The notes: a model not told the origin generated them from the letters alone. A DNA stretch of 11,534 nt from Candidatus Baldrarchaeum yapensis (GCA_016840465.1 JAEOSH010000062.1:1-11534), one strand, 5' to 3'; shown: positions 1 through 11,534, counted from the first letter of the stretch. A program made the numbers and translations.

Positions 1-192
1 GTTACTTAGGGTTACCCCTATTGCGCCATATTGTGGTCTCTCGTCGATACGCGTTTTGCCGGATGGCGAGGGTAGCTGGGATGAATGATGGAGGGGAGTA
101 TTGATTTCTCAAAAAGTTTCGGGAGTACCTGAAACAACTCGATCGGTATCTATAAATTTTAGTTTATATGGAGGATGAGGTGGGGAAATTGT

Positions 193-1035
193 ATGATTAG
201 GAGAGAAAGGGTTTTGAGAGTTGCGGCAAAGGTCATTGAAGAGTTGGGGAGGAGGATATGCGAGTCGTACGAGAAGTATGAGGAGGAGAGTGATGTACTT
301 TACAACTTCATATTGATACTTACTCCAGTGGAGTATGAAATAAGCCTGCTAAGGAATATTCTTGCGCGGATAGAGGTCATATGGGAGCGATTTGAGAAGA
401 AGGCGAGGGAGGATGAGGATTTTAGAAAATGGACGGAGGGTAGGGGGCCCTTTAAGGACAGGTACAAGGATATTGTAAGAGAGATTCTCATGGGTGAGGG
501 GTTCACGCCTTCGGAGATGCCTCTCGAGCTGATAATACTCACGATAACCCTTGGGGGCATGGCTCAAAGCATTTTTGGAATGTTGAAGTTATGGAAGGAG
601 GTAAAGGACGAGGGTTATGACTTCAGGGATCTGTACAAGTATTTTAAGGACAAGTATGGGCCGAATGCTCTTAGGAGGATGATTTCGAGACTTAAGGAGA
701 TACCCAAAATTGGCGAGGTGAGGGCGTTAACTTTCCTGCGGGAGTACGCAATAAGGTCGGGGTCCGATCTGCCGTTACGGGAATTACCGATCCCTGACAG
801 TAGGATCATAGGGAGGGTGATGAGGCGCATGGGTTTCGTGGAGAGTGAGAGAACAAGCGAGATTAGGGAGGCGGGGCGTAGATATTTCAAGGTACCGATA
901 ATAGCGGCTGCGGGACTGGAATATATAGGGTATTATTACTGCTACGAAACTGGTCCTTTATGTGATGAATGCCCACTCGAAGCGCTCTGTGAGTGGAACA
1001 TAGAATGGTACTGGTTCGAGTACTGGTATATCTAA
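193..1035 (+). CDS. HhH-GPD superfamily (endonuclease III-like) DNA glycosylase-like protein with C-terminal [4Fe-4S] motif
   Basis: Helix-hairpin-helix LKEIPKIGEVRALTFL (691-738 region), Asp-containing PDSRIIGRVMRRMG, and exact EndoIII cluster motif C-X6-C-X2-C-X5-C (CYETGPLCDECPLEALC, 940-990). ORF track starts at 175; ATG 193 is preferred because GAGGTGGGG (177-185) lies just upstream. Confidence 0.75.
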   Translation: MIRRERVLRVAAKVIEELGRRICESYEKYEEESDVLYNFILILTPVEYEISLLRNILARIEVIWERFEKKAREDEDFRKWTEGRGPFKDRYKDIVREILMGEGFTPSEMPLELIILTITLGGMAQSIFGMLKLWKEVKDEGYDFRDLYKYFKDKYGPNALRRMISRLKEIPKIGEVRALTFLREYAIRSGSDLPLRELPIPDSRIIGRVMRRMGFVESERTSEIREAGRRYFKVPIIAAAGLEYIGYYYCYETGPLCDECPLEALCEWNIEWYWFEYWYI

Positions 1036-1255: not shown

Positions 1256-1699
1256 TCAAATGATGAAGAATTCGGGGCATATTTTCATGTTTCGAACCCA
1301 GAAAGCCACCTGTATGTCTTTTACGTGTGGGATAGTCGCAACTTTAACAATTAAGTCGTGTAGATGTTCAAAATCTCGAACCACTCCGATTGCCATCAGA
1401 TCGCAGTCGCCCACAACTTTTGTTGCTAAAATGATATCCTTTATTTCAATTAGTTTATTTAGAACCTGTGTGGAGTGTTCGGGCTCTGCATCAATCATGA
1501 GGGCTACCATGCTCCTGTAACCTATTTTCTCCGGGTTAATTACAACAGTTGAACCTTGTATTATGCCCTTTTTCTGCAGCATTCTAAACCTATTTACTAT
1601 GGTATCTGGTGAGACTCCTAGCTTTCTGGCAATTTCTCTGAACGAAGTGCGTGCATCTTTTTTGAGATACTCGATTATCGCTAAATCGATTTCATCCAT
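1256..1699 (-). CDS. Lrp/AsnC family transcriptional regulator
   Basis: MDEIDLAIIEYLKKDARTSFREIARKLGVSPDTIVNRFRMLQKKGIIQG HTH, INPEKIGY linker, RAM domain with GDCDL. Perfect SD GAGGTGA (plus-strand 1706-1712) 6 nt before the ATG. Confidence 0.95.
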   Translation of the reverse strand: MDEIDLAIIEYLKKDARTSFREIARKLGVSPDTIVNRFRMLQKKGIIQGSTVVINPEKIGYRSMVALMIDAEPEHSTQVLNKLIEIKDIILATKVVGDCDLMAIGVVRDFEHLHDLIVKVATIPHVKDIQVAFWVRNMKICPEFFII

Positions 1700-1712: not shown

Positions 1713-2177
1713 TTAAAAATTAAATTCAAAGTTTTCTGGGCAAAGTAGAACTTGTCCGACCCAGATGTTCGTGCTTACGTTCTTCACGTGCGGATGGCTC
1801 TTAATAAGGTCTCTAACTTCGCTTAAACGGGTAATGTCCTTAAAAATTGCTACACTAAACAAGTTACACTTACCGATCGAGGGGACACAGATAAGTACCT
1901 CAGGTATTCTCCGAATGAAATTAATTACATCGTTTATATGAGGGTAATTAACATTGATGCAAAAACTGGCTATATATTCATATCCGAGTTTTTTGGGATT
2001 GAGTAGGATTGTAGTCCCAGAAATAATTCCCATTTTCTTCATTTTGTTAAAACGTCTAATTATCGTATCGGTGGAGACGTTACATTTTTTTGCGATATCT
2101 GTAAACGGGGTTCTACCATCTCGTTGAAGAATTCTCAATATCTTGATATCGATTTCATCAAGTTTCACTCTTGCCAG
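1713..2177 (-). CDS. Lrp/AsnC family transcriptional regulator (tandem paralog)
   Basis: LDEIDIKILRILQRDGRTPFTDIAKKCNVSTDTIIRRFNKMKKMGIISG HTH, LNPKKLGY linker, RAM domain. ORF track extends to 2231, but SD GAGGTGG (2184-2190) points to CTG 2177 (or GTG 2168) as the start. Confidence 0.92.
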   Translation of the reverse strand: MARVKLDEIDIKILRILQRDGRTPFTDIAKKCNVSTDTIIRRFNKMKKMGIISGTTILLNPKKLGYEYIASFCINVNYPHINDVINFIRRIPEVLICVPSIGKCNLFSVAIFKDITRLSEVRDLIKSHPHVKNVSTNIWVGQVLLCPENFEFNF

Positions 2178-2219
2178 GAGTTCCCACCTCTTCCAACCGA
2201 TCTTGCATCCGACATTATA

Positions 2220-2227
2220 GTATATAA
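2220..2227 (-). promoter_or_regulatory. Putative TATA box of the lrp-lrp transcript
   Basis: TTATATAC on the minus strand, about 30 nt upstream of the SD at 2184-2190. Confidence 0.45.
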
Positions 2228-2347
2228 CCAACTTAAAAACTTATAGTGTCCGATATAGTCGAGCATTTTTCGGTCATTTACTTTCGCTTTTCGAAAATTC
2301 TTACGACGAAAATGTCAGGTGAAATGTTTCGATTATCGGACGGAATC

Positions 2348-2355
2348 TTTATTAA
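2348..2355 (+). promoter_or_regulatory. Putative TATA box of the hdr-glt operon
   Basis: TTTATTAA preceded by purine-rich CGGAAT (BRE-like), about 25 nt upstream of SD GGTGA (2381-2385) and ATG 2389. Confidence 0.5.
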
Positions 2356-2388
2356 TAGCTGAAATATTCCAAAAGTATTGGGTGAAAT

Positions 2389-2667
2389 ATGTTGAATATC
2401 GGACATATACTTGAGAGGGAGCTAAAGAAGAAGCGGTATTGTTGTGCCTGTTGTGGCTATACGTGGATAGAATTTGTTGGCCTCATCATCGAAAAGAGAG
2501 AAGGGTCAGATGATTTGCACTTTCGGATTGGATACGGTACGCCTCCTGAATGTCCGGTATGTGGATGCGATCTCGTGTATGAAATAGCGCTTTCTGAAGA
2601 AAACCAACAAGTAGAAGCCAGTTTTGAAGGCATTAAAATAATCCTAAGAGAAAGAACAGAAATCTAG
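2389..2667 (+). CDS. Small Cys-rich zinc-ribbon/rubredoxin-like protein, first gene of the operon
   Basis: YCCACCGYTW and PECPVCGCD knuckles, 7 Cys in 92 aa. SD GGTGA upstream; 31-nt gap to hdrA. Confidence 0.7.
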   Translation: MLNIGHILERELKKKRYCCACCGYTWIEFVGLIIEKREGSDDLHFRIGYGTPPECPVCGCDLVYEIALSEENQQVEASFEGIKIILRERTEI

Positions 2668-2698
2668 AATTTTAAAAAGTGCAATAGAGGTCGCTGAA

Positions 2699-5600
2699 AT
2701 GGAAAAAACAACAGGCGATGTTCTTGTAGTAGGTGGTGGAGTAGCCGGCATTACAGCATCCTTAGAACTTGCCGAAAAGGGATTTAAAGTCTACTTGGTA
2801 GAGAAAAAGCCCTCAATTGGGGGGCACATGGCTCAACTAGACAAAACTTTTCCGACGCTTGATTGTTCAATCTGCATTCTTGGGCCAAAAATGGTTGAAG
2901 TTTCCAGGCATCCCAACATAGAACTTCTTACATGTTCTGAAGTCGTAGAAGTGAAGCCCATAAAAAACGGTTCTGCATTTAGGGTCAAAATACTTAAAAA
3001 ACCACGATATGTGGATGAAGAAAAATGTACTGGTTGTCGAAGATGTGAGGAGAAATGCCCGGTTAAAGTTCCCAGTGAATTTGAAGCGGGGATGGGGTTA
3101 AGAAAAGCAATTTATATTCCCTTCCCTCAAGCCGTACCAAATGTTGCAATCATCGACGAGAAAAACTGCCGTTATCTTAATAAAGGCGTTTGCAGACTCT
3201 GCGAGAAGGTTTGCCCCACGGGTGCAATTGATTTTAACCAGAAGCCTCAAGAAATCGTGGTAGAAGTAGCTTCAATAATTGTTGCGACCGGGTTTTCCCT
3301 CCTGGATCCATCTGTTCTGCCACAGTACGGATATGGTAGATTCCCGGATGTTATAACATCGTTACAATACGAACGCCTCATGAACGCTGCTGGACCTACG
3401 GGTGGAGAGATCGTCAGACCTTCAGATAAAACACATCCAAGAAGGGTTGCAATTATTCAGTGCGTTGGATCAAGAAACAAGAAAATAAGAGACTATTGTT
3501 CGCAGATTTGTTGCATGTATGCGGCAAAGCAGGCTATAGTTACGAAAGAACACGATCCAAATATAGACGTAATAGTTTTCTACAATGACTTAAATGCATC
3601 CGGCAAAGGTCACGAAGACTTACTGCAGAGGGCTATTGAAGAATTTGGAATTAAGTACATAAAGGGGCTACCAAGCGAAGTTCTATGGGATGAGAAAAGT
3701 AAAAAATTACTAATAAGGTATTTCGATTTCCTCAGCGGAGAAATTAAGTCTGTAGATGTGGATTTAGTAGTACTTTGCCCTGCAGTAGTTCCAAGCGACG
3801 ATACTTCCAAGTTAGCTGAAATTCTCGGGATAGAACTAAACGAATTTGGTTTCTTCAAGTCTACTGGTTACATGTCGGTCAATACTAATGTTCCTGGCAT
3901 ATATGTGTGTGGTGCATGTCAAAATCCCAAAGATATTTCTCATAGTGTAATGCAGGCATTAGCTGCTGCGGCCCAAGCGGCGAGCAGGGTAAAACGTGTA
4001 AACAGACAAGAAAGTACTTTAAATGTTGGGAAACTAGGAGGAGAGAGGAAAACATCGAACGAGGAGCCAAGAATAGGAGTTTTTGTATGCCATTGTGGTC
4101 TGAATATAGCTGCTGTTGTAGACGTAAAAGCGGTCGTTGAAGAAGCAAAGAAACTTAGCAACGTTGTTCATGCCGAAGATATAATGTTTACATGTTCTAA
4201 GGATGGGACAGAGCGAATTAAAGAAGCTATCAAAAAATACAATCTTAACAGAGTCATCGTGGCTTCATGTACTCCAAGAACCCATGAACCATTGTTCCGA
4301 ACCGTATGTGAAGAAGCGGGACTAAATCCGTACTTATTTGAAATGGTTAACATCAGAGAACAGGTTGCGTGGGTCCATAAGAGTTCCCCTGAGAAGGCGA
4401 CTGAGAAAGCCAAGGAACTCATTAGAATGGCTGTGGCGAAAGCAAGGCTCTTAGAGCCGTTGGAGCGAATGGAGATAGAAGTTACCCCTGCTGCTCTTGT
4501 TATTGGAGCAACTATCAGCGGTCTTATAGCCGCAAAAACCATTGCTGATAGCGGATTTAAAACGTATCTTGTTGATAGCGGAGAGAAAATGGGATACGAT
4601 CTGCATCTCTACGGGTACGATGAAGACGCTAAATGGGTCTCCGATTTAATCAATTCCGTAAAAGAGCATGAAAACATAGAATTTCTCCCCTCCACCAAAA
4701 TAGAAGAAGTTAAAGGCTCAATAGGGAATTTTGATGTTAAATTAAACCAGAATGGAGTTAGTAAAGAGATTAAAGTTGGAACAATCATTGTAGCAGTTGG
4801 CGCCGAGGAGTTTAAACCGGTGGGCTTATACGGCTACGGAAAATTCGGCAATGTCTATACTTTAACCGAATTCCAACGTATGAGTGAGAACGTGAAAGAT
4901 GAAGAAACCATAGTGTTCATTTTGTGTGCTGGTACTGGGAAGAATTTTGATCGAACATACTGCTCGGTTGTTTGCTGCGAAAGGTCCCTAAGAGAAGCGA
5001 TTAAAATCAAGAGCAAACACCCGAGGTCGAATGTGTACATATTATACAAGAACATAAGACTACCGGTCACCGGCGAAAAACTTTATCGCCAAGCTCGTGA
5101 GGCCGGAGTAATTTTCATGAGATATGATTCGGATAGATTGCCTGAAGTTCGTCAAGAAGACGGGAAACTTATTGTGGACGTTTACGATATCGCGTCTAAC
5201 ATGAACTTCGAAATAATCGCCGATAAAGTTGTTTTAGCCACACCCATCGTGCCTCTTGAGGAATACCGTGAACTTGCATCTAAACTCAAGGTTCCCCTTG
5301 ATAGTCACGGATTCTTCTTGGAAGCTCATCCAAAACTTAGACCCGTAGATTTCGCTACTGATGGAATTTTCCTCTGCGGATTAGCTTACAGTCCGCAAAG
5401 ATTAGATGAAAGCATCTCACAAGCATTAGCCGCAGCATCACGAGCTCTTACCACATTAATGAAAGGAAAAGTAATTACTGAGGCTATTACAGCTTATGTG
5501 AATCCAGAGCTTTGCACGGGTTGTGGACGATGCGTAAGGGTTTGCGAATTTGGTGCGATAAAACTTGAAGTCACTCCAGATAAACATCTAGTAGCCAGAG

Positions 5601-6151
5601 TTGATCCACTGCTGTGCAAAGGTTGTGGATCATGTTCGGTTGAATGTCCCGCGAGAGCTATAACGATGCATCACTTCAGAAGTGATCAAATTCTGAACAT
5701 GATTAAGACATTATTCGAAAAACCAACATCAGAAGAAGAATTGAAAATCGTAGCTTTCCTCTGCAACTGGTGTGGTTACGCTGCGGCAGATATGGCAGGT
5801 GTAAGCAGATACGAATACCCGCCAGCCGTTAGAATCATCCGTGTTATGTGTAGTGCCAGAGTAGATCCACTCCATGTACTGTACGCTCTTCTACTGGGAG
5901 CTGATGGTGTACTGATTATTGGTTGTCATCCGGGTGATTGTCATTACATTTCGGGCAACCTAAGGGCCGAGGAACGCATATCGAGGGTAAAAGAATGGCT
6001 AAAAGAGATCGGTTTAGAGCCGGAAAGAGTTAGAATCGAGTGGGCATCGGCTGGGGAGGGATTGAGATTGGCCAAAATTATCGAGGAATTCACGCATCAA
6101 ATAGAAGAACTTGGAGTAAATCCTTTAAGAAGGAGGTTAGTTAATGAGTAG
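2699..6151 (+). CDS. hdrA: Heterodisulfide reductase subunit A-like flavoprotein, tandem double module, fused to C-terminal MvhD domain
   Basis: VLVVGGGVAG FAD motif, IGGHMAQLDKTFPTLDCSICIL, inserted 2x[4Fe-4S] domain, CVGSR...YCSQICCMYAAKQA. Second module starts IGVFVCHCG...FTCS...ASCTPRTHE and contains FFLEAHPKLRPVD. C-terminal 2x[4Fe-4S], then MvhD (FLCNWCGY, RVMCSARVD, GCHPGDCHY; 5741-6151). SD GAGGT 2687-2691. Confidence 0.95.
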   Translation: MEKTTGDVLVVGGGVAGITASLELAEKGFKVYLVEKKPSIGGHMAQLDKTFPTLDCSICILGPKMVEVSRHPNIELLTCSEVVEVKPIKNGSAFRVKILKKPRYVDEEKCTGCRRCEEKCPVKVPSEFEAGMGLRKAIYIPFPQAVPNVAIIDEKNCRYLNKGVCRLCEKVCPTGAIDFNQKPQEIVVEVASIIVATGFSLLDPSVLPQYGYGRFPDVITSLQYERLMNAAGPTGGEIVRPSDKTHPRRVAIIQCVGSRNKKIRDYCSQICCMYAAKQAIVTKEHDPNIDVIVFYNDLNASGKGHEDLLQRAIEEFGIKYIKGLPSEVLWDEKSKKLLIRYFDFLSGEIKSVDVDLVVLCPAVVPSDDTSKLAEILGIELNEFGFFKSTGYMSVNTNVPGIYVCGACQNPKDISHSVMQALAAAAQAASRVKRVNRQESTLNVGKLGGERKTSNEEPRIGVFVCHCGLNIAAVVDVKAVVEEAKKLSNVVHAEDIMFTCSKDGTERIKEAIKKYNLNRVIVASCTPRTHEPLFRTVCEEAGLNPYLFEMVNIREQVAWVHKSSPEKATEKAKELIRMAVAKARLLEPLERMEIEVTPAALVIGATISGLIAAKTIADSGFKTYLVDSGEKMGYDLHLYGYDEDAKWVSDLINSVKEHENIEFLPSTKIEEVKGSIGNFDVKLNQNGVSKEIKVGTIIVAVGAEEFKPVGLYGYGKFGNVYTLTEFQRMSENVKDEETIVFILCAGTGKNFDRTYCSVVCCERSLREAIKIKSKHPRSNVYILYKNIRLPVTGEKLYRQAREAGVIFMRYDSDRLPEVRQEDGKLIVDVYDIASNMNFEIIADKVVLATPIVPLEEYRELASKLKVPLDSHGFFLEAHPKLRPVDFATDGIFLCGLAYSPQRLDESISQALAAASRALTTLMKGKVITEAITAYVNPELCTGCGRCVRVCEFGAIKLEVTPDKHLVARVDPLLCKGCGSCSVECPARAITMHHFRSDQILNMIKTLFEKPTSEEELKIVAFLCNWCGYAAADMAGVSRYEYPPAVRIIRVMCSARVDPLHVLYALLLGADGVLIIGCHPGDCHYISGNLRAEERISRVKEWLKEIGLEPERVRIEWASAGEGLRLAKIIEEFTHQIEELGVNPLRRRLVNE

Positions 6152-6653
6152 AGCGGCAACTTCTCTTAAATTAGTTGAGGCAGACACCAACTTAAAATTC
6201 GAGATCGCAAAAACGGAACTAGGGGGTAAAGCCTTCTGGTGCGTACAATGCGGTATATGTACCTCCGGATGTCCTGTTGCCGAATTTTTGAAACCCCACC
6301 GAATAGTCAGGATGGTAGTATTGGGGCTTAAAGACCAACTGATTAACTCTAGGGAAATCTGGTTCTGTACTACATGTTTCACCTGTTCGGAGAGATGCCC
6401 GCAAGAAGTTGATCCGGCAAATATCATATTTTCGTTGAAAAACATGGCAGCAAAACAGGGTAAAATTCCCAAAGGACTGAGAGATATAGGTAAGAGTCTG
6501 ATAGAAACTGGGAGGGCTATTAAGATAAGTACTGCTCGAGAAAAGGAAAGGATGAAACTAGGGCTTCCAAGGATTCCGCAAGTGGACGTTGAAAAGAATA
6601 GGAAAATACTGGAAGAGACTAATTTTGTGAAAACTTTGGAGGAGGCGAAGTGA
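6144..6653 (+). CDS. hdrC: Heterodisulfide reductase subunit C
   Basis: CVQCGICTSGCP and IWFCTTCFTCSERCPQEVDP, two [4Fe-4S] motifs. SD AGGAGGT 6131-6137; 8-nt overlap with hdrA; lies between hdrA and hdrB. Confidence 0.93.
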   Translation: MSRAATSLKLVEADTNLKFEIAKTELGGKAFWCVQCGICTSGCPVAEFLKPHRIVRMVVLGLKDQLINSREIWFCTTCFTCSERCPQEVDPANIIFSLKNMAAKQGKIPKGLRDIGKSLIETGRAIKISTAREKERMKLGLPRIPQVDVEKNRKILEETNFVKTLEEAK

Positions 6654-7534
6654 TGAAATACGCATATTACTTGGGATGTTTGATACCAGCAAGACTGAAC
6701 CAGTATGATTTGTCCACGCGTGCTGTGGCCAAAAAATTTGGTATTGAACTTGTTGACCTAGAGGGTGCGGGTTGTTGCGGCACGGTACTTGTTCGTTCTG
6801 TAAACTTCAAGACCAATCTGGCGATGAGCGCTAGGATATTAGCGCTAGCTAAAAACATGGGATTCGATCTTCTTGTACTCTGTAATGGTTGTTATGAATC
6901 TCTCATGGAAGCTGAAGATTTCGTTAAAACAAACGAAGATTTTAGGGAACAACTTAATACTATCCTCAAATCCACAGATAACCTGGTTTATGAAGGCGGT
7001 GTGAAAGTTAAACACCTCATTCAAGTATTATACGAAGATATAGGAATCGAGAGACTTAAAGATGAAATCAAAAAACCGTTTGATGGATTGAGAGTGGCGG
7101 TTCATTACGGTTGCCATATCCTGCGTCCATCTCATAGAATGAAATTTGACAACGCTGAAAATCCAAGAATACTCGATGATCTTGTTGAAATTACTGGTGC
7201 GAAGAGCATTTACTGGCCTTTAAAACTCTGGTGTTGCGGATCGCCAATATTGGCGATAGATAGGAATTTGAGCTTATCCATAGCTGGAATGAAACTCAAA
7301 AGTGCTAAGGAGGCTGGAGCTGATTGTATTGTAACCATCTGCCCAGCATGCCAAATCCAATTTGACATTTTACAGCCGGAGATAAGCAGAGTTACTGGTG
7401 AACAATACAATATACCTGTACTTCTCTATCCTCAGCTGCTTGGCCTCGCTCTCGGTTTTACACCGGAAGAAGTAGGTTTGCATCTCAATAGGATAAGTGC
7501 AGAAAGCTTGTTAAAGCTTCAAAGTAAAGCCTAG
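6653..7534 (+). CDS. hdrB: Heterodisulfide reductase subunit B (two CCG domains)
   Basis: YAYYLGC, GCCG, CNGCY, HYGCHILRP, WCCG, CPACQIQFD: full ligand set for two non-cubane clusters. ATG 6653 overlaps the hdrC stop (TGATG); ORF track starts at GTG 6650. Confidence 0.95.
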   Translation: MKYAYYLGCLIPARLNQYDLSTRAVAKKFGIELVDLEGAGCCGTVLVRSVNFKTNLAMSARILALAKNMGFDLLVLCNGCYESLMEAEDFVKTNEDFREQLNTILKSTDNLVYEGGVKVKHLIQVLYEDIGIERLKDEIKKPFDGLRVAVHYGCHILRPSHRMKFDNAENPRILDDLVEITGAKSIYWPLKLWCCGSPILAIDRNLSLSIAGMKLKSAKEAGADCIVTICPACQIQFDILQPEISRVTGEQYNIPVLLYPQLLGLALGFTPEEVGLHLNRISAESLLKLQSKA

Positions 7535-7545
7535 AGGTGAAAAGT

Positions 7546-8652
7546 GTGGTTACGGCTCTTAAAAAGAAAGTTTGGGACGTAAACCGGTGCAGTGGATGTG
7601 GGATGTGCGTTTCAACATGTGCAAAGAACGTTATACGCTTTCCCGAGGATGGTGATCAACCGATTTTGGAGGTCAGAGAGAAAAATGTTGGTTTGTCTCA
7701 TGTAGTGGTAGACACTTGCTTTTTCTGTGAAAGACCTTGCGAAGATAGTTGTCCCCGGTTGAAGGAATGGAAAAGTGGACCCGTGATTCGTATGGTTTCC
7801 GCAGTTTCAAAGTTGCCGGATGGCGACGTTATTGATGCGTTGCTGATTTCGGCGCTTAGGCGTGAGCTGATTGACGGGGCAATTATATGGGATGTGGAGA
7901 GAGATTCTTTCAAACCACTACCTAAAGTTGTGACCTCTGAAGATGAAATACTGAAAAGTGCAGGTTATCAGCACTTGTGGTGCCCGATTCTTAAAGCCTT
8001 GAATGACGCAATTTATGGAAGAGGATTAAAAAAGATAGCAGTTGTTGGACCGCCCTGCGTTGCCCAAGCGGTTAAAACCGTGCTATCATCTACAAATGAA
8101 AAGCTTAAGATGTATAGGGAGCGAATACGTTTAACCATCGGACTATTCTGTGACGGTATCTATTCCTATCAACTGGTAACCAACGAAATAGTCAGTAGAT
8201 TTAACATTAAGCCCTACGATATCAACGCGATAAGAGTAGATCTCAGAAATGCATTACTAAGAATCATAATGCACGACGGATCAGAAAAAACAATCCCGTT
8301 GCCGGATGTTCGAAAATACGTGAGGAATGGTTGCGCCCGCTGTACAGATTTTGCATCAGAATGGGCTGATATATCCGTTGGAGATGTGGGATCAGAGAAC
8401 GGAAAAACTACTGTCATTGTTAGAACGCCCATTGGTGAAAAATGCTTGGATTATGCTGTCAGGGAGAGAACCTTAGAGATTGTGGAAAGTCTCGTCAATG
8501 TAGAAGAGATACAAAGGTTTGTTTCGAGCAAGGAGAGAAGAAAACGGGCACAAGAGATAGATTCTCTTCTTCTATCAATGTTAGATGCCCTCTCAGGTGT
8601 AAAAAGTAAAGAGGAGATAGAAGAAATGCTAAAATCGATTGGGAGGAGATAA
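7546..8652 (+). CDS. FrhB/FdhB-family (F420 hydrogenase/dehydrogenase beta subunit-like) protein with N-terminal ferredoxin domain
   Basis: CSGCGMCVSTC and CFFCERPCEDSCP; IAVVGPPC, IGLFC, GCARCTDFASEWADISVGDVG, TTVIVRT. The track's start GTG 7537 lies inside a perfect SD GAGGTGA (7534-7540), so in-frame GTG 7546 is the likelier start. Confidence 0.88.
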   Translation: MVTALKKKVWDVNRCSGCGMCVSTCAKNVIRFPEDGDQPILEVREKNVGLSHVVVDTCFFCERPCEDSCPRLKEWKSGPVIRMVSAVSKLPDGDVIDALLISALRRELIDGAIIWDVERDSFKPLPKVVTSEDEILKSAGYQHLWCPILKALNDAIYGRGLKKIAVVGPPCVAQAVKTVLSSTNEKLKMYRERIRLTIGLFCDGIYSYQLVTNEIVSRFNIKPYDINAIRVDLRNALLRIIMHDGSEKTIPLPDVRKYVRNGCARCTDFASEWADISVGDVGSENGKTTVIVRTPIGEKCLDYAVRERTLEIVESLVNVEEIQRFVSSKERRKRAQEIDSLLLSMLDALSGVKSKEEIEEMLKSIGRR

Positions 8653-8655
8653 GCT

Positions 8656-9315
8656 ATGGAATATAAAATAGATGCAAGCAATAAAGACCTAAAAACGGTA
8701 AATTCTGAGATTAGAAAAGCAATTAAGAACGGGGTTGAGAAGATAATAGTTAAAAATGCTTCTCATATTCATGGTCTTGCGGCAGGGTTAAAAGGCGGTA
8801 CTATTATCATAAACGGAGATGTGGGAGACTACACAGCCGCGTTAAATGATGGTGCAACAATTATCATAAACGGCAATGCCGGTAAATTCTTGGCCGATAA
8901 CATGACTAAGGGCACGGTCATTGTTAATGGAAATGCAGGATATGGAGCCGCAGTCTATTGTTATGGTGGATTAGTTGTAATACGCGGAGATGCTGGAGAT
9001 TTCTTAGGTGCTTTGAATAAGGGCGCAACGATATTAGTTGCGGGGAATGCTGGAAACGAAGTGGGAACTTACATGGTGGGAGGAGAAATAATAATAGTTG
9101 GAGACGTGGGTAAAAACGTGGGCAATTGGTTTATTCGCGGTAGCATTTTTGTTGGAGGAAAATGGCAAAGCTTAGGGAATAATTGCAAAGAGGTGCCGAT
9201 GGAGAGTGAAGATATAAGGAGACTTGAGGAGTATTTCAACAAGTATGATATAAGCGCGAATCCGGAAAAATTTAAGAAACTAGTGCCCATTTCGGTGAAG
9301 CCATTCTATAAATAG
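8656..9315 (+). CDS. gltB3: Glutamate synthase GXGXG beta-helix subunit (GltB domain 3/FwdC-like)
   Basis: Repeating INGDVGDYTA, INGNAGKFLA, VNGNAGYGAA, IRGDAGDFLG, VAGNAGNEVG, IVGDVGKNVG units. SD GGAGG 8642-8646; directly upstream of the FMN subunit. Confidence 0.88.
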   Translation: MEYKIDASNKDLKTVNSEIRKAIKNGVEKIIVKNASHIHGLAAGLKGGTIIINGDVGDYTAALNDGATIIINGNAGKFLADNMTKGTVIVNGNAGYGAAVYCYGGLVVIRGDAGDFLGALNKGATILVAGNAGNEVGTYMVGGEIIIVGDVGKNVGNWFIRGSIFVGGKWQSLGNNCKEVPMESEDIRRLEEYFNKYDISANPEKFKKLVPISVKPFYK

Positions 9316-9329
9316 GGGGTGAAAGTGAG

Positions 9330-10850
9330 ATGCCCATATTAGGAGCTTATTGTGTTACAATGGACAAGGAACGTTGTATTAGTTGGAAAATGCCTGGAAA
9401 GTGTTCGACCTGTGTAATGGTGTGTCCAAATTCTGTCTTTTCAGTAGATGATTCGGGCAGAGTTTACGTGCTTAATGATTTGGCGTGCGTTGGTTGTAGG
9501 ATTTGTGTTGAAAATTGTCCTAATAACGTGATCCATATCCGGCCGGCCGAACCTGAACGCTTCTCAAGAGGACTATGGACGTATCAGACAATTGAGGAGA
9601 TTCATTACAAAGCTGAAACCGGAAAATACCTACTCAGAGGATATGGAACCATGGGATTATTGCCGCATTTCGATGACTTGGTTATTGTACCAGCTCACCT
9701 TTATCCACCTCTCCCTAAAGACAAATATAGGGAAGAATGTAAAATGGATGTTGTAATCGGCGAAGGAAGGGTGAAAAAGCCTTTAAAGCTTAAAATACCC
9801 GTTATGTTTGCTGCCATGTCATACGGAGCCATTTCAAGAGAGGCTAAGATAGCTATAGCTATAGCAACTGCTAAAATGGGAATTGCTGCGTGTACTGGTG
9901 AAGGAGGTTCTTTTCCCGAGGAATATTATCTTGCACATGGATATAAGAATGAAGAAGATTTCAAGCATGGCAAGAAAACATACGAACCCGGTGGATATTT
10001 GATAGTTCAGTGGGCTAGTGGCAGATGGGGAGTTTCTATCGATTACCTCAACAGATCAGACGCTATCGAAATTAAAATAGGACAAGGAGCAAAACCCGGC
10101 ATGGGCGGTCACCTACTTGGAGAAAAGGTTACGGAGGAAATAGCTAAGATCCGTGGCATACCAGTTGGTACAGACTGCCTTTCACCATGCCGACACTACG
10201 ACATTTATGATGTTAAAGAAGATTTGAAAAAACAAATCGAACTTCTTCGGGATGTAACAGACTATGAAAAGCCAATTATCGTAAAAATAGGTCCTGGAAG
10301 AGTATATAAAGATGTTAAAATTGCTGCCGAAGCAGGTGCGGACGCTATCGCCATAGATGGGATGCAGGGCGGAACAGGAGCCTCACCAGAACTTGCAATT
10401 CAAACTGCTGGAATTCCAACAATAGCGTGTATCCCGCTTGCCGCTAAAGCACTCGAAGATTTAGGTTTACGTGATGAAGTGAAAATTATAGCAATGGGCG
10501 GAATCCGTAATGGGGCGGATGTGGTAAAAGCTTTAGCACTAGGTGCTGATTGCGTAGCGATAGCTTCTGCAGCCTTAATTGCAATGGGGTGTCGTGTCTG
10601 TACGCAATGTCTTAAGGGAAGATGCCCATACGGTATAACATCTCAAGACCCAGAACTTCGAAAGAGGCTCCAACCAGAAAAAGCTGCTGAGCGACTGGTC
10701 AACTTCTTAAAAGCTATATCCGAGGAGATAAAAATGCTTACGATGCTTGCGGGTCACGACGATATTCATGAACTATCGAAAGAGGATCTACGAGCCTTAG
10801 ATCTCAATGTTGCAGCCATGACTGGTGTAAAGTTTGTGGGCTGGCCCTAA
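9330..10850 (+). CDS. gltB2: Glutamate synthase FMN-binding subunit (GltB domain 2) with N-terminal 2x[4Fe-4S] ferredoxin domain
   Basis: HFDDLVIVPA, AAMSYGAIS, TGEGG, ASGRWGV, EIKIGQGAKPGMGGHL, DGMQGGTGASP, GGIRNGADVVKALALGAD, GCRVCTQCLKGRCPYGITSQDPELR. SD GGGGGTGA 9315-9322. Confidence 0.93.
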   Translation: MPILGAYCVTMDKERCISWKMPGKCSTCVMVCPNSVFSVDDSGRVYVLNDLACVGCRICVENCPNNVIHIRPAEPERFSRGLWTYQTIEEIHYKAETGKYLLRGYGTMGLLPHFDDLVIVPAHLYPPLPKDKYREECKMDVVIGEGRVKKPLKLKIPVMFAAMSYGAISREAKIAIAIATAKMGIAACTGEGGSFPEEYYLAHGYKNEEDFKHGKKTYEPGGYLIVQWASGRWGVSIDYLNRSDAIEIKIGQGAKPGMGGHLLGEKVTEEIAKIRGIPVGTDCLSPCRHYDIYDVKEDLKKQIELLRDVTDYEKPIIVKIGPGRVYKDVKIAAEAGADAIAIDGMQGGTGASPELAIQTAGIPTIACIPLAAKALEDLGLRDEVKIIAMGGIRNGADVVKALALGADCVAIASAALIAMGCRVCTQCLKGRCPYGITSQDPELRKRLQPEKAAERLVNFLKAISEEIKMLTMLAGHDDIHELSKEDLRALDLNVAAMTGVKFVGWP

Positions 10851-11288: not shown

Positions 11289-11534
11289 GTGGTGGTCGCG
11301 GTGGACTCCGCCGAGGAGGTTGCGCGGAAGGCCCTGGAACTCCTCCCCCAGATCCTGAAGGAACGGCCGGACCTGGCGTTTAAACTCTACGAGGAGTTAA
11401 GGAAGCACTTCGTGCCCCGCGACGCCTTCGAGAAATTTCTTGAAAGGTTCGACGCCGCCCTCCGCGAGATGAAGGAGATAAGGGAGGAGTACAACCGAAG
11501 GTTCGAGGAACTGCGGAGGGAAATGAACCAGAGG
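11289..11534 (+). CDS. 5' part of a coiled-coil protein, probably the archaeal coiled-coil plus PD-(D/E)XK nuclease-like type (DUF3782-like); truncated by the window end and absent from the ORF track
   Basis: Open frame after TAG 11280-82: VVVAVDSAEEVARKALELLPQILKERPDLAFKLYEELRKHFVPRDAFEKFLERFDAALREMKEIREEYNRRFEELRREMNQR. Start is GTG 11289, 11292 or 11301. Charged helical repeat pattern and strong coding-like codon bias. The nuclease domain is not visible in the window. Confidence 0.7.
   Translation, partial: MVVAVDSAEEVARKALELLPQILKERPDLAFKLYEELRKHFVPRDAFEKFLERFDAALREMKEIREEYNRRFEELRREMNQR

What the first reader, a model, noticed from the sequence alone, without database searches (positions are those of the whole stretch)
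2389..10850. One operon joins HdrA-MvhD/HdrC/HdrB, an FrhB-type protein and split glutamate synthase subunits: candidate Hdr-coupled glutamate-synthase-like redox complex
Seen: seven same-strand genes with overlaps or gaps of 31 nt or less, each with an SD, one promoter in front and one terminator behind. No MvhAG or FdhA gene is present. Established: in methanogen complexes MvhD passes electrons into HdrA from MvhAG or from FdhAB (FdhB belongs to the FrhB family). Separately, FrhB-like genes often sit beside split archaeal gltB genes. Inference: here the FrhB-family protein could bridge the GltB2 flavin/Fe-S chain to MvhD-HdrA, giving one complex that links amino-acid or imine redox chemistry to disulfide reduction and flavin-based bifurcation. 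The 2-oxoglutarate+NH4/glutamate couple (about -0.12 to -0.14 V) is close to the heterodisulfide couple, so glutamate oxidation alone could not drive ferredoxin reduction. Likelier modes are direct glutamate:disulfide exchange, or a shared low-potential input feeding reductive amination. Divergent Lrp regulators fit amino-acid control. I do not know of a characterised complex like this.
Basis: partly seen in the sequence, partly recalled or inferred. Interest (0 to 1): 0.88.

Follow-up and report, generated by a model that had tools for sequence, protein, structure and literature searches.

The report
Hdr-wired glutamate synthase-like operon
An Asgard archaeon carries a tight seven-gene operon in which a heterodisulfide-reductase electron-splitting module is joined, through an FrhB-like iron-sulfur adaptor, to a glutamate synthase core that has no glutamine-splitting part; the same core recurs in several archaeal phyla and in bacteria, and I found no paper that describes it.

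Summary
Seven co-directional genes (2389-10850) have gaps of -8 to +31 nt. They encode a Zn-ribbon microprotein, a 1150-aa HdrA-HdrA'-MvhD fusion, HdrC, HdrB, an FrhB-family protein, GltB3 (GXGXG) and a ferredoxin-fused GltB2. A divergent Lrp/AsnC pair lies upstream.

The block [HdrA...MvhD]-FrhB-like-GltB3-GltB2 was present in all 22 contexts of the nearest FrhB-like clade that I examined. These cover Baldrarchaeia, Hodarchaeales, Bathyarchaeia, Geothermarchaeota, a 'Nitrososphaeria' MAG and Anaerolineae, including cultured Longilinea arvoryzae.

The partner module varies: HdrCB, MvhAG hydrogenase, NuoEF-type, GltD-like or a canonical FrhB. GDH genes often flank the block.

This FrhB-like clade (59 of 59) has lost both FAD-contact motifs but keeps all its cysteines. 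GltB2 keeps the catalytic residues of glutamate synthase. No GltB1 amidotransferase was found in four host genomes.

Best reading (0.55): one HdrA-type electron-bifurcating or confurcating complex, with the glutamate/2-oxoglutarate+NH4+ couple on the MvhD arm. The direction is unresolved, and physical contact is not shown.

HdrCB is an exchangeable accessory, so "glutamate:disulfide exchange" is not the conserved function.

This scan has flagged bacterial cousins (NuoEF-HdrA-MvhD-FrhB-GltB in Anaerolineae) before on other DNA. This is the first archaeal HdrCB form it has flagged. I found no published description.

The parts
1256..1699 (-). Lrp/AsnC-family regulator b (147 aa)
   Evidence: Pfam HTH_AsnC-type plus AsnC_trans_reg. 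Orthologues of 55-90% identity occupy the same divergent position in L042 and L018. An equivalent pair is present in L054 and L058.
1713..2231 (-). Lrp/AsnC-family regulator a (172 aa)
   Evidence: Pfam HTH_AsnC-type plus AsnC_trans_reg. It is conserved together with regulator b in relatives.
2232..2388 (.). Divergent intergenic control region with a TATA-like TTTATTA at 2347-2353
   Evidence: Blocks including TTTATTA and ATCGGACG are conserved with G039. Promoter function is inferred, not shown.
2389..2667 (+). 92-aa Cys-rich microprotein, probably a 4-Cys zinc ribbon (CxxCG-TW-E ... CxxC)
   Evidence: No Pfam or NCBIfam hit. Homologues head the clusters in L042, L054, L058 and L018. It also occurs where HdrCB is absent (L018, L058).
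2699..6151 (+). HdrA-HdrA'-MvhD fusion (1150 aa). Unit 1 (aa 8-433) has an intact FAD fold, the inserted ferredoxin domain and a DCSIC motif. Unit 2 (aa 455-1007) has the N-terminal Fe-S domain, a degenerate GxGxxG (IGATISG) and the C-terminal ferredoxin domain. MvhD is aa 1011-1146.
   Evidence: Alignment to M. wolfeii HdrA 5ODC_A and MvhD 5ODC_D. Sequence. Unit 1 against unit 2, 28% identity. NCBIfam HdrA2 above cut-off.
6144..6653 (+). HdrC (169 aa, 2x[4Fe-4S] motifs)
   Evidence: Pfam Fer4_8/Fer4_17. Two CxxCxxCxxxCP motifs.
6650..7534 (+). HdrB (294 aa) with both CCG cysteine motifs intact
   Evidence: Pfam CCG x2. TIGR03288 scores 300 bits, below its cut-off of 345. Cysteines at C10, C42-C43, C78, C81 and at C155, C195-C196, C231, C234.
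7537..8652 (+). FrhB-family protein (371 aa). It has an N-terminal 2x[4Fe-4S] domain and the core cluster cysteines. The FAD-contact motifs are lost (DGDVID in place of Q-x-G-G-V-V-T; AGYQH in place of AG(S/T)(K/R)Y).
   Evidence: Pfam. Alignments to the solved FrhB-type chains 8RIU_B, 9R51_B and 8RJA_E. Clade-wide motif loss in 59 of 59, against none of 60 alignable more distant homologues. The role of the motifs is taken from PMC3591093.
8656..9315 (+). GltB3-type GXGXG beta-helix protein (219 aa)
   Evidence: Pfam GXGXG. NCBIfam FwdC/GltS C-terminal region. It is always found between FrhB-like and GltB2.
9330..10850 (+). GltB2-type FMN subunit (506 aa) with an N-terminal 2x[4Fe-4S] ferredoxin domain. 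It is the only full Glu_synthase domain found in the genome.
   Evidence: Pfam Glu_synthase, 400 bits. Genome search. Alignment to Synechocystis Fd-GltS 1LLW shows the equivalents of E903, Q969, K972 and R992 and the cluster cysteines conserved.

Best explanation
The seven genes encode one soluble iron-sulfur flavoprotein complex of the HdrA flavin-based electron-bifurcation type.

The catalytic arm is GltB2 (FMN, one 4-Cys cluster and two ferredoxin-type clusters), held by GltB3. It interconverts glutamate and 2-oxoglutarate + free NH4+. No glutamine is involved, because there is no amidotransferase.

Electrons pass between this arm and the single intact FAD of HdrA (unit 1). The proposed route is the three [4Fe-4S] clusters of an FrhB-like protein that no longer binds FAD or F420, then the [2Fe-2S] of the fused MvhD domain, then the Fe-S chain of the FAD-less HdrA unit 2. 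This is the position taken by MvhAG or FdhAB in solved methanogen complexes.

The other two termini are ferredoxin, at the inserted ferredoxin domain of unit 1, and an unknown disulfide/dithiol at HdrCB.

The complex would be reversible. In this peptide-fermenting host I favour, weakly (about 55:45), glutamate oxidation that reduces ferredoxin and a disulfide. The reverse reaction would be ferredoxin- and thiol-driven reductive amination.

Shown: gene order, domain content, motif states and conservation. Inferred: the complex itself, the electron path and the direction.
For: 1. Synteny. [HdrA...MvhD]-FrhB-like-GXGXG-GltB2 was present in every one of 22 contexts of the nearest FrhB-like clade, across at least five archaeal lineages and Anaerolineae. 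Starts and stops often overlap.
2. The clade is monophyletic (100/100) against the FrhB proteins of the methanogen glutamate-synthase loci.
3. All 59 clade members lack the Q-x-G-G and G(S/T)(K/R)Y motifs, which contact FAD in FrhB (PMC3591093). All 60 alignable more distant homologues keep the Q-x-G-G motif. The Fe-S cysteines are invariant.
4. Where FrhB keeps the motifs (M. jannaschii MJ1349 and two Euryarchaeota MAGs), the locus has GltB1 and no HdrA.
5. GltB2 keeps the equivalents of E903, Q969, K972 and R992 and the cluster cysteines. All 120 nearest homologues share a diverged LSP-x-R-(Y/H/F) segment in place of ISPAPHH.
6. No GATase_2 was found in the host genome or in three other carrier genomes.
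7. The partner modules are all redox input/output modules: HdrCB, MvhAG, NuoE/F, GltD-like and canonical FrhB.
8. GDH-family genes flank the block in L016, L020, L021, L041, L044-L049 and L056.
9. HdrA unit 1 and unit 2 have complementary features, as described for fused HdrAs in PMC9012536.
10. FdhB-MvhD-HdrA wiring is established in solved complexes (7BKB, listed).
Against: - No physical evidence of a complex exists, and no transcript data are available.
- HdrA2B2C2 works on its own in M. acetivorans (PMC5296606). FrhB+GltB loci exist without Hdr in methanogens. The two halves could therefore be independent enzymes that are merely co-regulated.
- The HdrB substrate is unknown. No McrA, ComA or ComD-type gene was found.
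- In variants without HdrCB, the three termini do not form an obvious high/mid/low potential set.
- Loss of the FAD motifs is inferred from sequence only.
- The host genome also has a separate GDH and a glutamine synthetase, so a physiological need is not evident.
Confidence: 0.55

Rival explanations
1. Non-bifurcating anabolic enzyme. HdrA-MvhD plus FrhB-like is only an electron-input chain, from reduced ferredoxin or another reductant, to an ammonia-dependent glutamate synthase. That enzyme would be the organism's substitute for GOGAT. HdrCB would be a side branch or redox sensor.
For: - It is the only full Glu_synthase domain found in the genome.
- The catalytic residues are intact.
- The partner modules in relatives oxidise reductants: MvhAG, NuoEF and GltD-like, the last being the natural NADPH donor of bacterial GOGAT.
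- In one Hodarchaeales-family genome the cluster carries neither HdrCB nor a second FrhB (L047).
- Glutamine synthetase is present elsewhere.
Against: - None of the loci with Pfam gene lists has glnA, amtB or a PII gene nearby. The neighbours are GDH, an aminotransferase, peptidases and an amino-acid dehydrogenase.
- Without glutamine there is no advantage over the GDH that the genome already has, unless energy coupling is involved.
- A full HdrA with an intact bifurcation-type FAD site and inserted ferredoxin domain is more than a simple wire needs.
Confidence: 0.2
2. Two independent enzymes share one transcript. One is an HdrA2B2C2-like F420H2/ferredoxin:disulfide reductase. The other is a small FrhB-like/GltB2/GltB3 glutamate synthase. 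There is no inter-module electron transfer.
For: - HdrA2B2C2 is self-sufficient and oxidises F420H2 without FrhB (PMC5296606).
- The window HdrA matches the HdrA2 model above cut-off.
- CofE is present, so F420 is probably made.
- FrhB+GltB units exist without Hdr in methanogens.
Against: - The FAD-motif-less FrhB-like clade is never seen without an adjacent HdrA-MvhD (22 of 22), even where HdrCB is missing. HdrA-MvhD is therefore not there to serve HdrCB.
- An FrhB without an FAD site has no evident donor of its own.
Confidence: 0.15
3. The GltB2/GltB3 pair acts on another imine, 2-oxoacid or amine substrate, as the GltB-like N-methylglutamate synthase does. The complex would then be unrelated to glutamate/2-oxoglutarate redox chemistry.
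For: - The amidotransferase is absent.
- The LSP-x-R-(Y/H/F) segment and a 16-22-residue insertion after TGEGG set the subfamily apart from GltB1-linked GltB2.
- Some automatic annotations call members 'methylamine-glutamate N-methyltransferase subunit C'.
Against: - The residues that bind 2-oxoglutarate and catalyse imine reduction in Fd-GltS are conserved. I recall their roles from the GltS literature.
- 119 of 120 homologues keep QGAKPGMGGHL.
- GDH genes are the most frequent neighbours.
Confidence: 0.07

Closest known systems
MvhAGD-HdrABC and FdhAB-MvhD-HdrABC electron-bifurcating complexes of methanogens (PDB 5ODC, 7BKB)
   Same: Both have an HdrA flavoprotein with N-terminal, inserted and C-terminal Fe-S domains, an MvhD [2Fe-2S] adaptor, HdrC, and HdrB with two CCG motifs. 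In both, a catalytic arm is attached next to MvhD, and in the Fdh form an FrhB-family protein (FdhB) makes that link.
   Different: Here HdrA is a fused pseudo-dimer with a single intact FAD site and MvhD fused to it. The arm is FrhB-like+GltB3+GltB2 in place of a hydrogenase or formate dehydrogenase. The host has no Mcr or CoM genes. HdrCB is dispensable in relatives.
HdrA2B2C2 of Methanosarcina acetivorans (PMC5296606)
   Same: Both have an HdrA-MvhD fusion with HdrB and HdrC. The NCBIfam HdrA2 model matches above cut-off. HdrA2B2C2 is bifurcating with ferredoxin as one partner.
   Different: HdrA2 is a single unit and uses F420H2 and CoM-S-S-CoB. It has no FrhB-like or GltB subunits.
[quoted passage not shown]
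   Same: Both combine an FrhB-family protein with split GltB2 (ferredoxin-fused FMN subunit) and GltB3. GltB2 has the same active-site residues and the same 4-Cys cluster motif.
   Different: FGltS loci include the GltB1 amidotransferase, and their FrhB keeps the FAD/F420 motifs. They have no HdrA or MvhD. Here GltB1 is absent, the motifs are lost, and HdrA-MvhD is always adjacent.
NuoEF(Bfu)-HdrA-MvhD-FrhB-GltB operons of Anaerolineae, flagged earlier in this scan (e1-4014765, e1-2410809, e1-2885980, e1-4857728)
   Same: They share the HdrA-like-MvhD / FAD-motif-less FrhB-like / GXGXG / GltB2 core. GltB2 is 58-65% identical. I verified the core here in Longilinea arvoryzae and in three metagenome contigs.
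   Different: The bacterial form has a single HdrA-like protein homologous to unit 2 only, together with a NuoE/NuoF/Fer2 module. It has no HdrCB, no HdrA unit 1 and no Lrp pair.
Bacterial NADPH-GOGAT (GltBD) and plant/cyanobacterial Fd-GOGAT (PDB 1EA0, 1LLW)
   Same: They share the FMN synthase domain, the chemistry of 2-iminoglutarate reduction, and the GXGXG beta-helix (PMC8097209).
   Different: Here there is no glutaminase domain, no central domain and no ammonia-tunnel partner. Four cysteines stand where GOGAT has the three of its [3Fe-4S]. The electron donor is different.

Membership tests
HdrABC-MvhD type heterodisulfide reductase | HdrA with an FAD-binding thioredoxin-reductase fold and its Fe-S domains | tested here: met
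   Unit 1 aligns to 5ODC_A residues 146-511 with GxGxxG and DCSIC intact. The N-terminal and C-terminal domains lie in unit 2.
HdrABC-MvhD type heterodisulfide reductase | HdrB with two CCG motifs (non-cubane clusters) and HdrC with 2x[4Fe-4S] | tested here: met
   Pfam CCG x2, and all ten motif cysteines present in HdrB. HdrC has two CxxCxxCxxxCP motifs.
HdrABC-MvhD type heterodisulfide reductase | CoM-S-S-CoB as substrate (the host makes CoM/CoB and has Mcr) | tested here: not met
   No McrA, ComA or sulfopyruvate decarboxylase was found in a genome that is 96% complete. CoB synthesis was not tested. The disulfide substrate is unknown.
HdrABC-MvhD type heterodisulfide reductase | Flavin-based bifurcation activity | not testable with these tools
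   This needs an enzyme assay.
F420-dependent glutamate synthase (FGltS) | FrhB-type subunit with an FAD/F420 site | tested here: not met
   The Q-x-G-G and G(S/T)(K/R)Y motifs are absent in the window protein and in 59 of 59 clade members. Both are present in MJ1349.
F420-dependent glutamate synthase (FGltS) | GltB1 glutamine amidotransferase subunit | tested here: not met
   PF00310 was not found in G000, G301, G302 or G303. Only a distant ACT+GATase_6/7 ORF is present, on contig C68.
F420-dependent glutamate synthase (FGltS) | GltB2 FMN subunit and GltB3 | tested here: met
   Pfam Glu_synthase at 400 bits and GXGXG. Active-site residues are conserved.
Glutamate synthase (GOGAT) sensu stricto | Glutamine-dependent reaction through an intramolecular ammonia tunnel | tested here: not met
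   There is no amidotransferase and no central domain. The segment corresponding to ISPAPHH has diverged across the whole subfamily.
FdhAB/MvhAG-type arm docked on MvhD | Direct contact between the FrhB-family subunit and MvhD, with clusters within electron-transfer distance | tested here: inconclusive
   Only conserved adjacency and translational coupling are available. No structural test gave an answer.

The most novel reading that the evidence does not exclude
This would be the first flavin-based electron-bifurcating enzyme whose two-electron substrate couple is an amino acid (glutamate / 2-oxoglutarate + NH4+). In Asgard and other peptide-fermenting anaerobes, glutamate oxidation would directly yield reduced ferredoxin, paid for by reduction of a disulfide. 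In the hydrogenase- or NADH-linked variants it would be confurcated with ferredoxin to give H2 or NADH. That would remove the thermodynamic bottleneck of oxidative deamination in syntrophic amino-acid degradation.
Probability: 0.3. Interest if true: 0.88.

Novelty: new variant of a known kind. Interest (0 to 1): 0.72.

Why it matters
Four families of electron-bifurcating enzymes are recognised (PMC8097209). None is known to use an amino-acid couple.

Glutamate is the hub through which amino-acid nitrogen and reducing equivalents flow in peptide fermenters. Syntrophic amino-acid degradation is the lifestyle inferred for Asgard archaea, the closest prokaryotic relatives of eukaryotes. An Hdr-coupled glutamate enzyme would change how their energy budgets, and those of Bathyarchaeia and Anaerolineae, are modelled.

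The work also defines three things of wider use. The first is a clade of FrhB proteins that are probably not F420 enzymes, although they are annotated as such. The second is a GltB2 subfamily that works without glutaminase. The third is a cultured organism, Longilinea arvoryzae, in which a cousin of the complex can be purified.

Tried and rejected
- Complex prediction on FrhB-like (alignment A1) with the MvhD domain (alignment A2) scored 0.03 against a mark of 0.32. The tool returned no verdict, so this counts neither for nor against binding.
I used the look-up of encoding contigs and the genome search instead.
- The sigma-70 promoter and intrinsic-terminator scan scored at chance level and does not suit an archaeon.
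- Rfam and tRNA scans of the window found nothing.
- The Atlas feature search for the 92-aa microprotein gave only unrelated small-protein clusters.
- I rejected the idea that the microprotein is the thiol substrate of HdrB. Its homologues head clusters that lack HdrCB (L018, L058).
- I rejected the idea that F420 enters through the FrhB-like protein, because the motifs are lost.
- I toned down the idea that the conserved HdrA-like core is always FAD-less. The unit 2 Rossmann motif is degenerate in the window, L016, L023 and L055, but intact in L020, L021, L054, L058, L059 and L060.
- Eight literature searches found no description of an Hdr/FrhB/GltB2-GltB3 complex. The library does not cover subscription-only papers.

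Full report
**What is in the window**

The window is a complete 11,534-bp contig (C25) of a 2.27-Mb MAG that is 96% complete. Earlier notes of this scan assign the MAG to Asgard/Baldrarchaeia. That fits the NCBI name of a homologue with 84% identity.

Seven + strand ORFs run from 2389 to 10850, with gaps of 31, -8, -4, 2, 3 and 14 nt. Pfam and NCBIfam identify them as follows:
- a 92-aa Cys-rich protein with no family hit;
- a 1150-aa HdrA-type protein ending in an MvhD/FlpD domain (best model HdrA2, NF040770, above cut-off);
- HdrC;
- HdrB with two CCG domains;
- an FrhB_FdhB_N/C protein with an N-terminal two-cluster ferredoxin domain;
- a GXGXG (GltB3) protein;
- a ferredoxin-fused Glu_synthase FMN protein (GltB2).

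Two Lrp/AsnC genes diverge upstream. SD-like motifs precede six of the seven starts. A TATA-like TTTATTA at 2347-2353 is conserved in a relative. The bacterial-type promoter and terminator scan is uninformative.

**Anatomy of the parts**

The HdrA protein is a pseudo-dimer.
- Unit 1 (aa 8-433) aligns to residues 146-511 of M. wolfeii HdrA. It has an intact GxGxxG, the DCSIC motif and the inserted ferredoxin domain.
- Unit 2 (aa 455-1007) carries the N-terminal Fe-S domain, a TrxR-like domain whose dinucleotide motif is degenerate (IGATISG) and which has no DCSIC, and the C-terminal ferredoxin domain.
- MvhD follows at aa 1011-1146.

Such complementarity in fused HdrAs has been described for ANME archaea (PMC9012536). 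In that description the unit order is the reverse of the one here.

The HdrB and HdrC motifs are intact.

GltB2 aligns to Synechocystis Fd-GltS (1LLW). The equivalents of E903, Q969, K972 and R992 are conserved. I recall the roles of these residues from the GltS literature. GltB2 also has CxxCxxCxxxxC where Fd-GltS has the three cysteines of its [3Fe-4S] cluster.

**The FrhB-like protein is probably not an F420 enzyme**

Against the solved FrhB-type chains 8RIU_B, 9R51_B and 8RJA_E, the window protein reads DGDVID where they have (D/N)GG(I/V)V(T/S). It reads AGYQH where they have AG(S/T)(K/N/R)Y.

In FrhB, the FAD pyrophosphate sits at the N-terminus of the helix that begins at the first motif. 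The Lys75-Tyr76 loop lies beside the flavin (PMC3591093).

Among 120 homologues, all 59 nearest lack both motifs. All 60 alignable more distant ones keep the first motif, and all 61 keep the Lys/Arg-Tyr loop in some form; these include MJ1349 of the putative F420-glutamate synthase. The Fe-S cysteines are invariant. The clade is monophyletic with 100/100 support. In a library of 1.84 billion proteins it amounts to only about 15-20 clusters at 50% identity.

**Conservation of the cluster**

Every context I could read for this clade has an HdrA...MvhD gene immediately upstream of FrhB-like, followed by GXGXG and GltB2. That is 22 loci:
- Baldrarchaeia (L014, L041-L043);
- a 'Nitrososphaeria' MAG (L016);
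- Geothermarchaeota (L054);
- Bathyarchaeia CP070649 (L020);
- Hodarchaeales and Asgard family f21 (L021, L044-L050);
- Longilinea arvoryzae KOME-1 (L023);
- metagenome contigs L018, L055, L056 and L058-L060.

The cluster is patchy within phyla. I found it in 14 of 301 Asgard genomes and 3 of 201 Bathyarchaeia genomes.

The accompanying module varies:
- HdrCB in the window, L014, L016, L054, L020, L021, L046 and L056;
- an MvhG/MvhA [NiFe] hydrogenase with a second MvhD, and no HdrCB, in L018;
- NuoE/NuoF/Fer2 in L023, L055, L059 and L060;
- a GltD-like NAD(P)H flavoprotein in L058;
- a canonical, motif-bearing FrhB in L020, L021, L044, L048 and L049;
- none of these in L047.

Within Baldrarchaeia, HdrC and HdrB of G039 are only 48% and 61% identical to the window's. 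The other four proteins are 77-90% identical. This suggests that the module was exchanged.

The Lrp pair and the microprotein travel with the core in L042, L054, L058 and L018, whatever the partner module.

GDH-family genes flank the block in at least eleven loci. One type is close to archaeal GdhA and the other is divergent.

**The missing glutaminase**

PF00310 (GATase_2) was not found in the host genome. It was also not found in Longilinea, the complete Bathyarchaeia genome or the Geothermarchaeota MAG. It is found in 13 of 14 control genomes.

By contrast, loci whose FrhB keeps the FAD motifs have GltB1-GltB2-GltB3-FrhB and no HdrA.

All 120 nearest GltB2 homologues share LSP-x-R-(Y/H/F) in place of the ISPAPHH of GltB1-linked GltB2. 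They also share a longer insertion after TGEGG. From memory, this segment corresponds to the loop that couples the synthase site to the glutaminase in GOGAT. I could not confirm that in a paper.

**Host background**

The host genome has the following features:
- no McrA, ComA or ComD-type gene;
- CofE, so F420 is probably made;
- a separate GDH, a glutamine synthetase, an MvhAG-like pair and a second FrhB;
- at least four other Hdr clusters.

The window cluster is therefore a specialised Hdr paralogue with an unknown disulfide substrate.

**Mechanism**

The strict MvhD-FrhB-like-GltB3-GltB2 order points to one wiring. So do the translational coupling, the loss of the FrhB flavin site with retention of three clusters, and the precedent of FdhB docking on MvhD in solved Fdh-Hdr complexes. 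The proposed path runs from the GltB2 FMN through the GltB2 clusters, the FrhB-like clusters, the MvhD [2Fe-2S] and the Fe-S chain of HdrA unit 2 to the unit 1 FAD.

From that FAD there are two branches. One goes to ferredoxin through the inserted ferredoxin domain. The other goes to HdrCB.

That judgement rests on E0' of about -0.13 to -0.15 V. The half-reaction has two solutes on one side. With, for example, 0.3 mM 2-oxoglutarate, 1 mM NH4+ and 30 mM glutamate, the Nernst term is about -150 mV and E' is near -0.3 V. This is my own calculation with assumed concentrations.

At that potential the glutamate couple sits at the level of NAD(P)H. It fits the mid-potential arm, with a disulfide as the high-potential partner and ferredoxin as the low-potential partner.

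In variants that carry MvhAG, NuoEF or GltD-like modules without HdrCB, two readings are possible. The glutamate couple may be the more positive partner, which would be the anabolic direction. Alternatively, the complex may confurcate glutamate and reduced ferredoxin to give H2 or NAD(P)H.

I cannot decide the direction. Two points lean towards catabolism: the neighbours (GDH, an aminotransferase, peptidases, and no glnA, amtB or PII gene in the loci with Pfam lists) and the peptide-fermenting hosts. Two points lean towards anabolism: the reductant-oxidising partner modules, and the fact that this is the only full Glu_synthase domain found in the genome.

**Comparison with the literature**

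Fused HdrAs, FrhB paralogues beside HdrA, and FrhB paralogues beside glutamate synthase subunits are each described, but separately (PMC9012536, PMC3448663, PMC12054007). HdrA2B2C2 has been characterised (PMC5296606).

Eight full-text searches found no paper that joins Hdr, FrhB-like and GltB2/GltB3.

This scan had already flagged the bacterial NuoEF form several times, as well as MetFV-Hdr-GOGAT operons. It had flagged no archaeal look-alike. The present case adds three things: the archaeal double-HdrA/HdrCB form, the hydrogenase, GltD-like and FrhB partner variants, and the clade-wide loss of the FrhB flavin motifs.

**Verdict**

A single Hdr-wired, glutaminase-less glutamate-synthase-like complex is the best reading (0.55). 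However, HdrCB is an exchangeable accessory, and the thermodynamic reasoning needs correcting. I class the finding as a new variant of a known kind, with interest 0.72.

Noticed in passing
G000 contig C68, locus L011:483-1755: A 283-aa ORF carries an ACT domain plus a class-II glutamine amidotransferase domain (GATase_6/7, not PF00310). It is followed by a 120-aa ORF that matches only the last 44 positions of Pfam Glu_synthase. This could be a distant stand-alone glutaminase or a regulator. It bears on the claim that the genome has no GltB1.
   Followed up: partly
window 175-1035 (+): A 286-aa ORF has no Pfam or NCBIfam hit. It ends with C-x6-C-x2-C-x5-C, which is the spacing of the Fe-S cluster loop of EndoIII/MutY-type glycosylases as I recall it.
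   Followed up: no
window 10587-10625 (GltB2 residues 420-432): Archaeal-type GltB2 proteins, both Hdr-linked and GltB1-linked, have four cysteines (CxxCxxCxxxxC) where Fd-GOGAT has the three ligands of its [3Fe-4S]. This suggests a [4Fe-4S] cluster at that site.
   Followed up: partly
L042 (G039:C241) and L043 (G029:C119) against window 6144-7534: In a genus of the same order, HdrC and HdrB are 48% and 61% identical to the window's. HdrA, FrhB-like, GXGXG and GltB2 are 77-90% identical. The HdrCB pair appears to have been swapped within the otherwise conserved operon.
   Followed up: partly
L020, L021, L044-L049, L056: The Hodarchaeales/Bathyarchaeia form of the cluster always carries two further conserved proteins with no Pfam or NCBIfam family. 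One is about 144 aa, upstream of HdrA. The other is about 255-270 aa, before the downstream GDH.
   Followed up: partly
L051-L053 (Asgard family f9): Proteins of 910-925 aa contain an FrhB-like domain at about residues 115-470, fused to other domains. In L053 the protein lies near MvhAG and an 849-aa HdrA. This is a different FrhB fusion family, not analysed further.
   Followed up: no
window 11289-11534 (+): A partial ORF at the contig end is G+C-rich and Arg/Glu-rich, unlike the rest of the window. It has no family hit.
   Followed up: no
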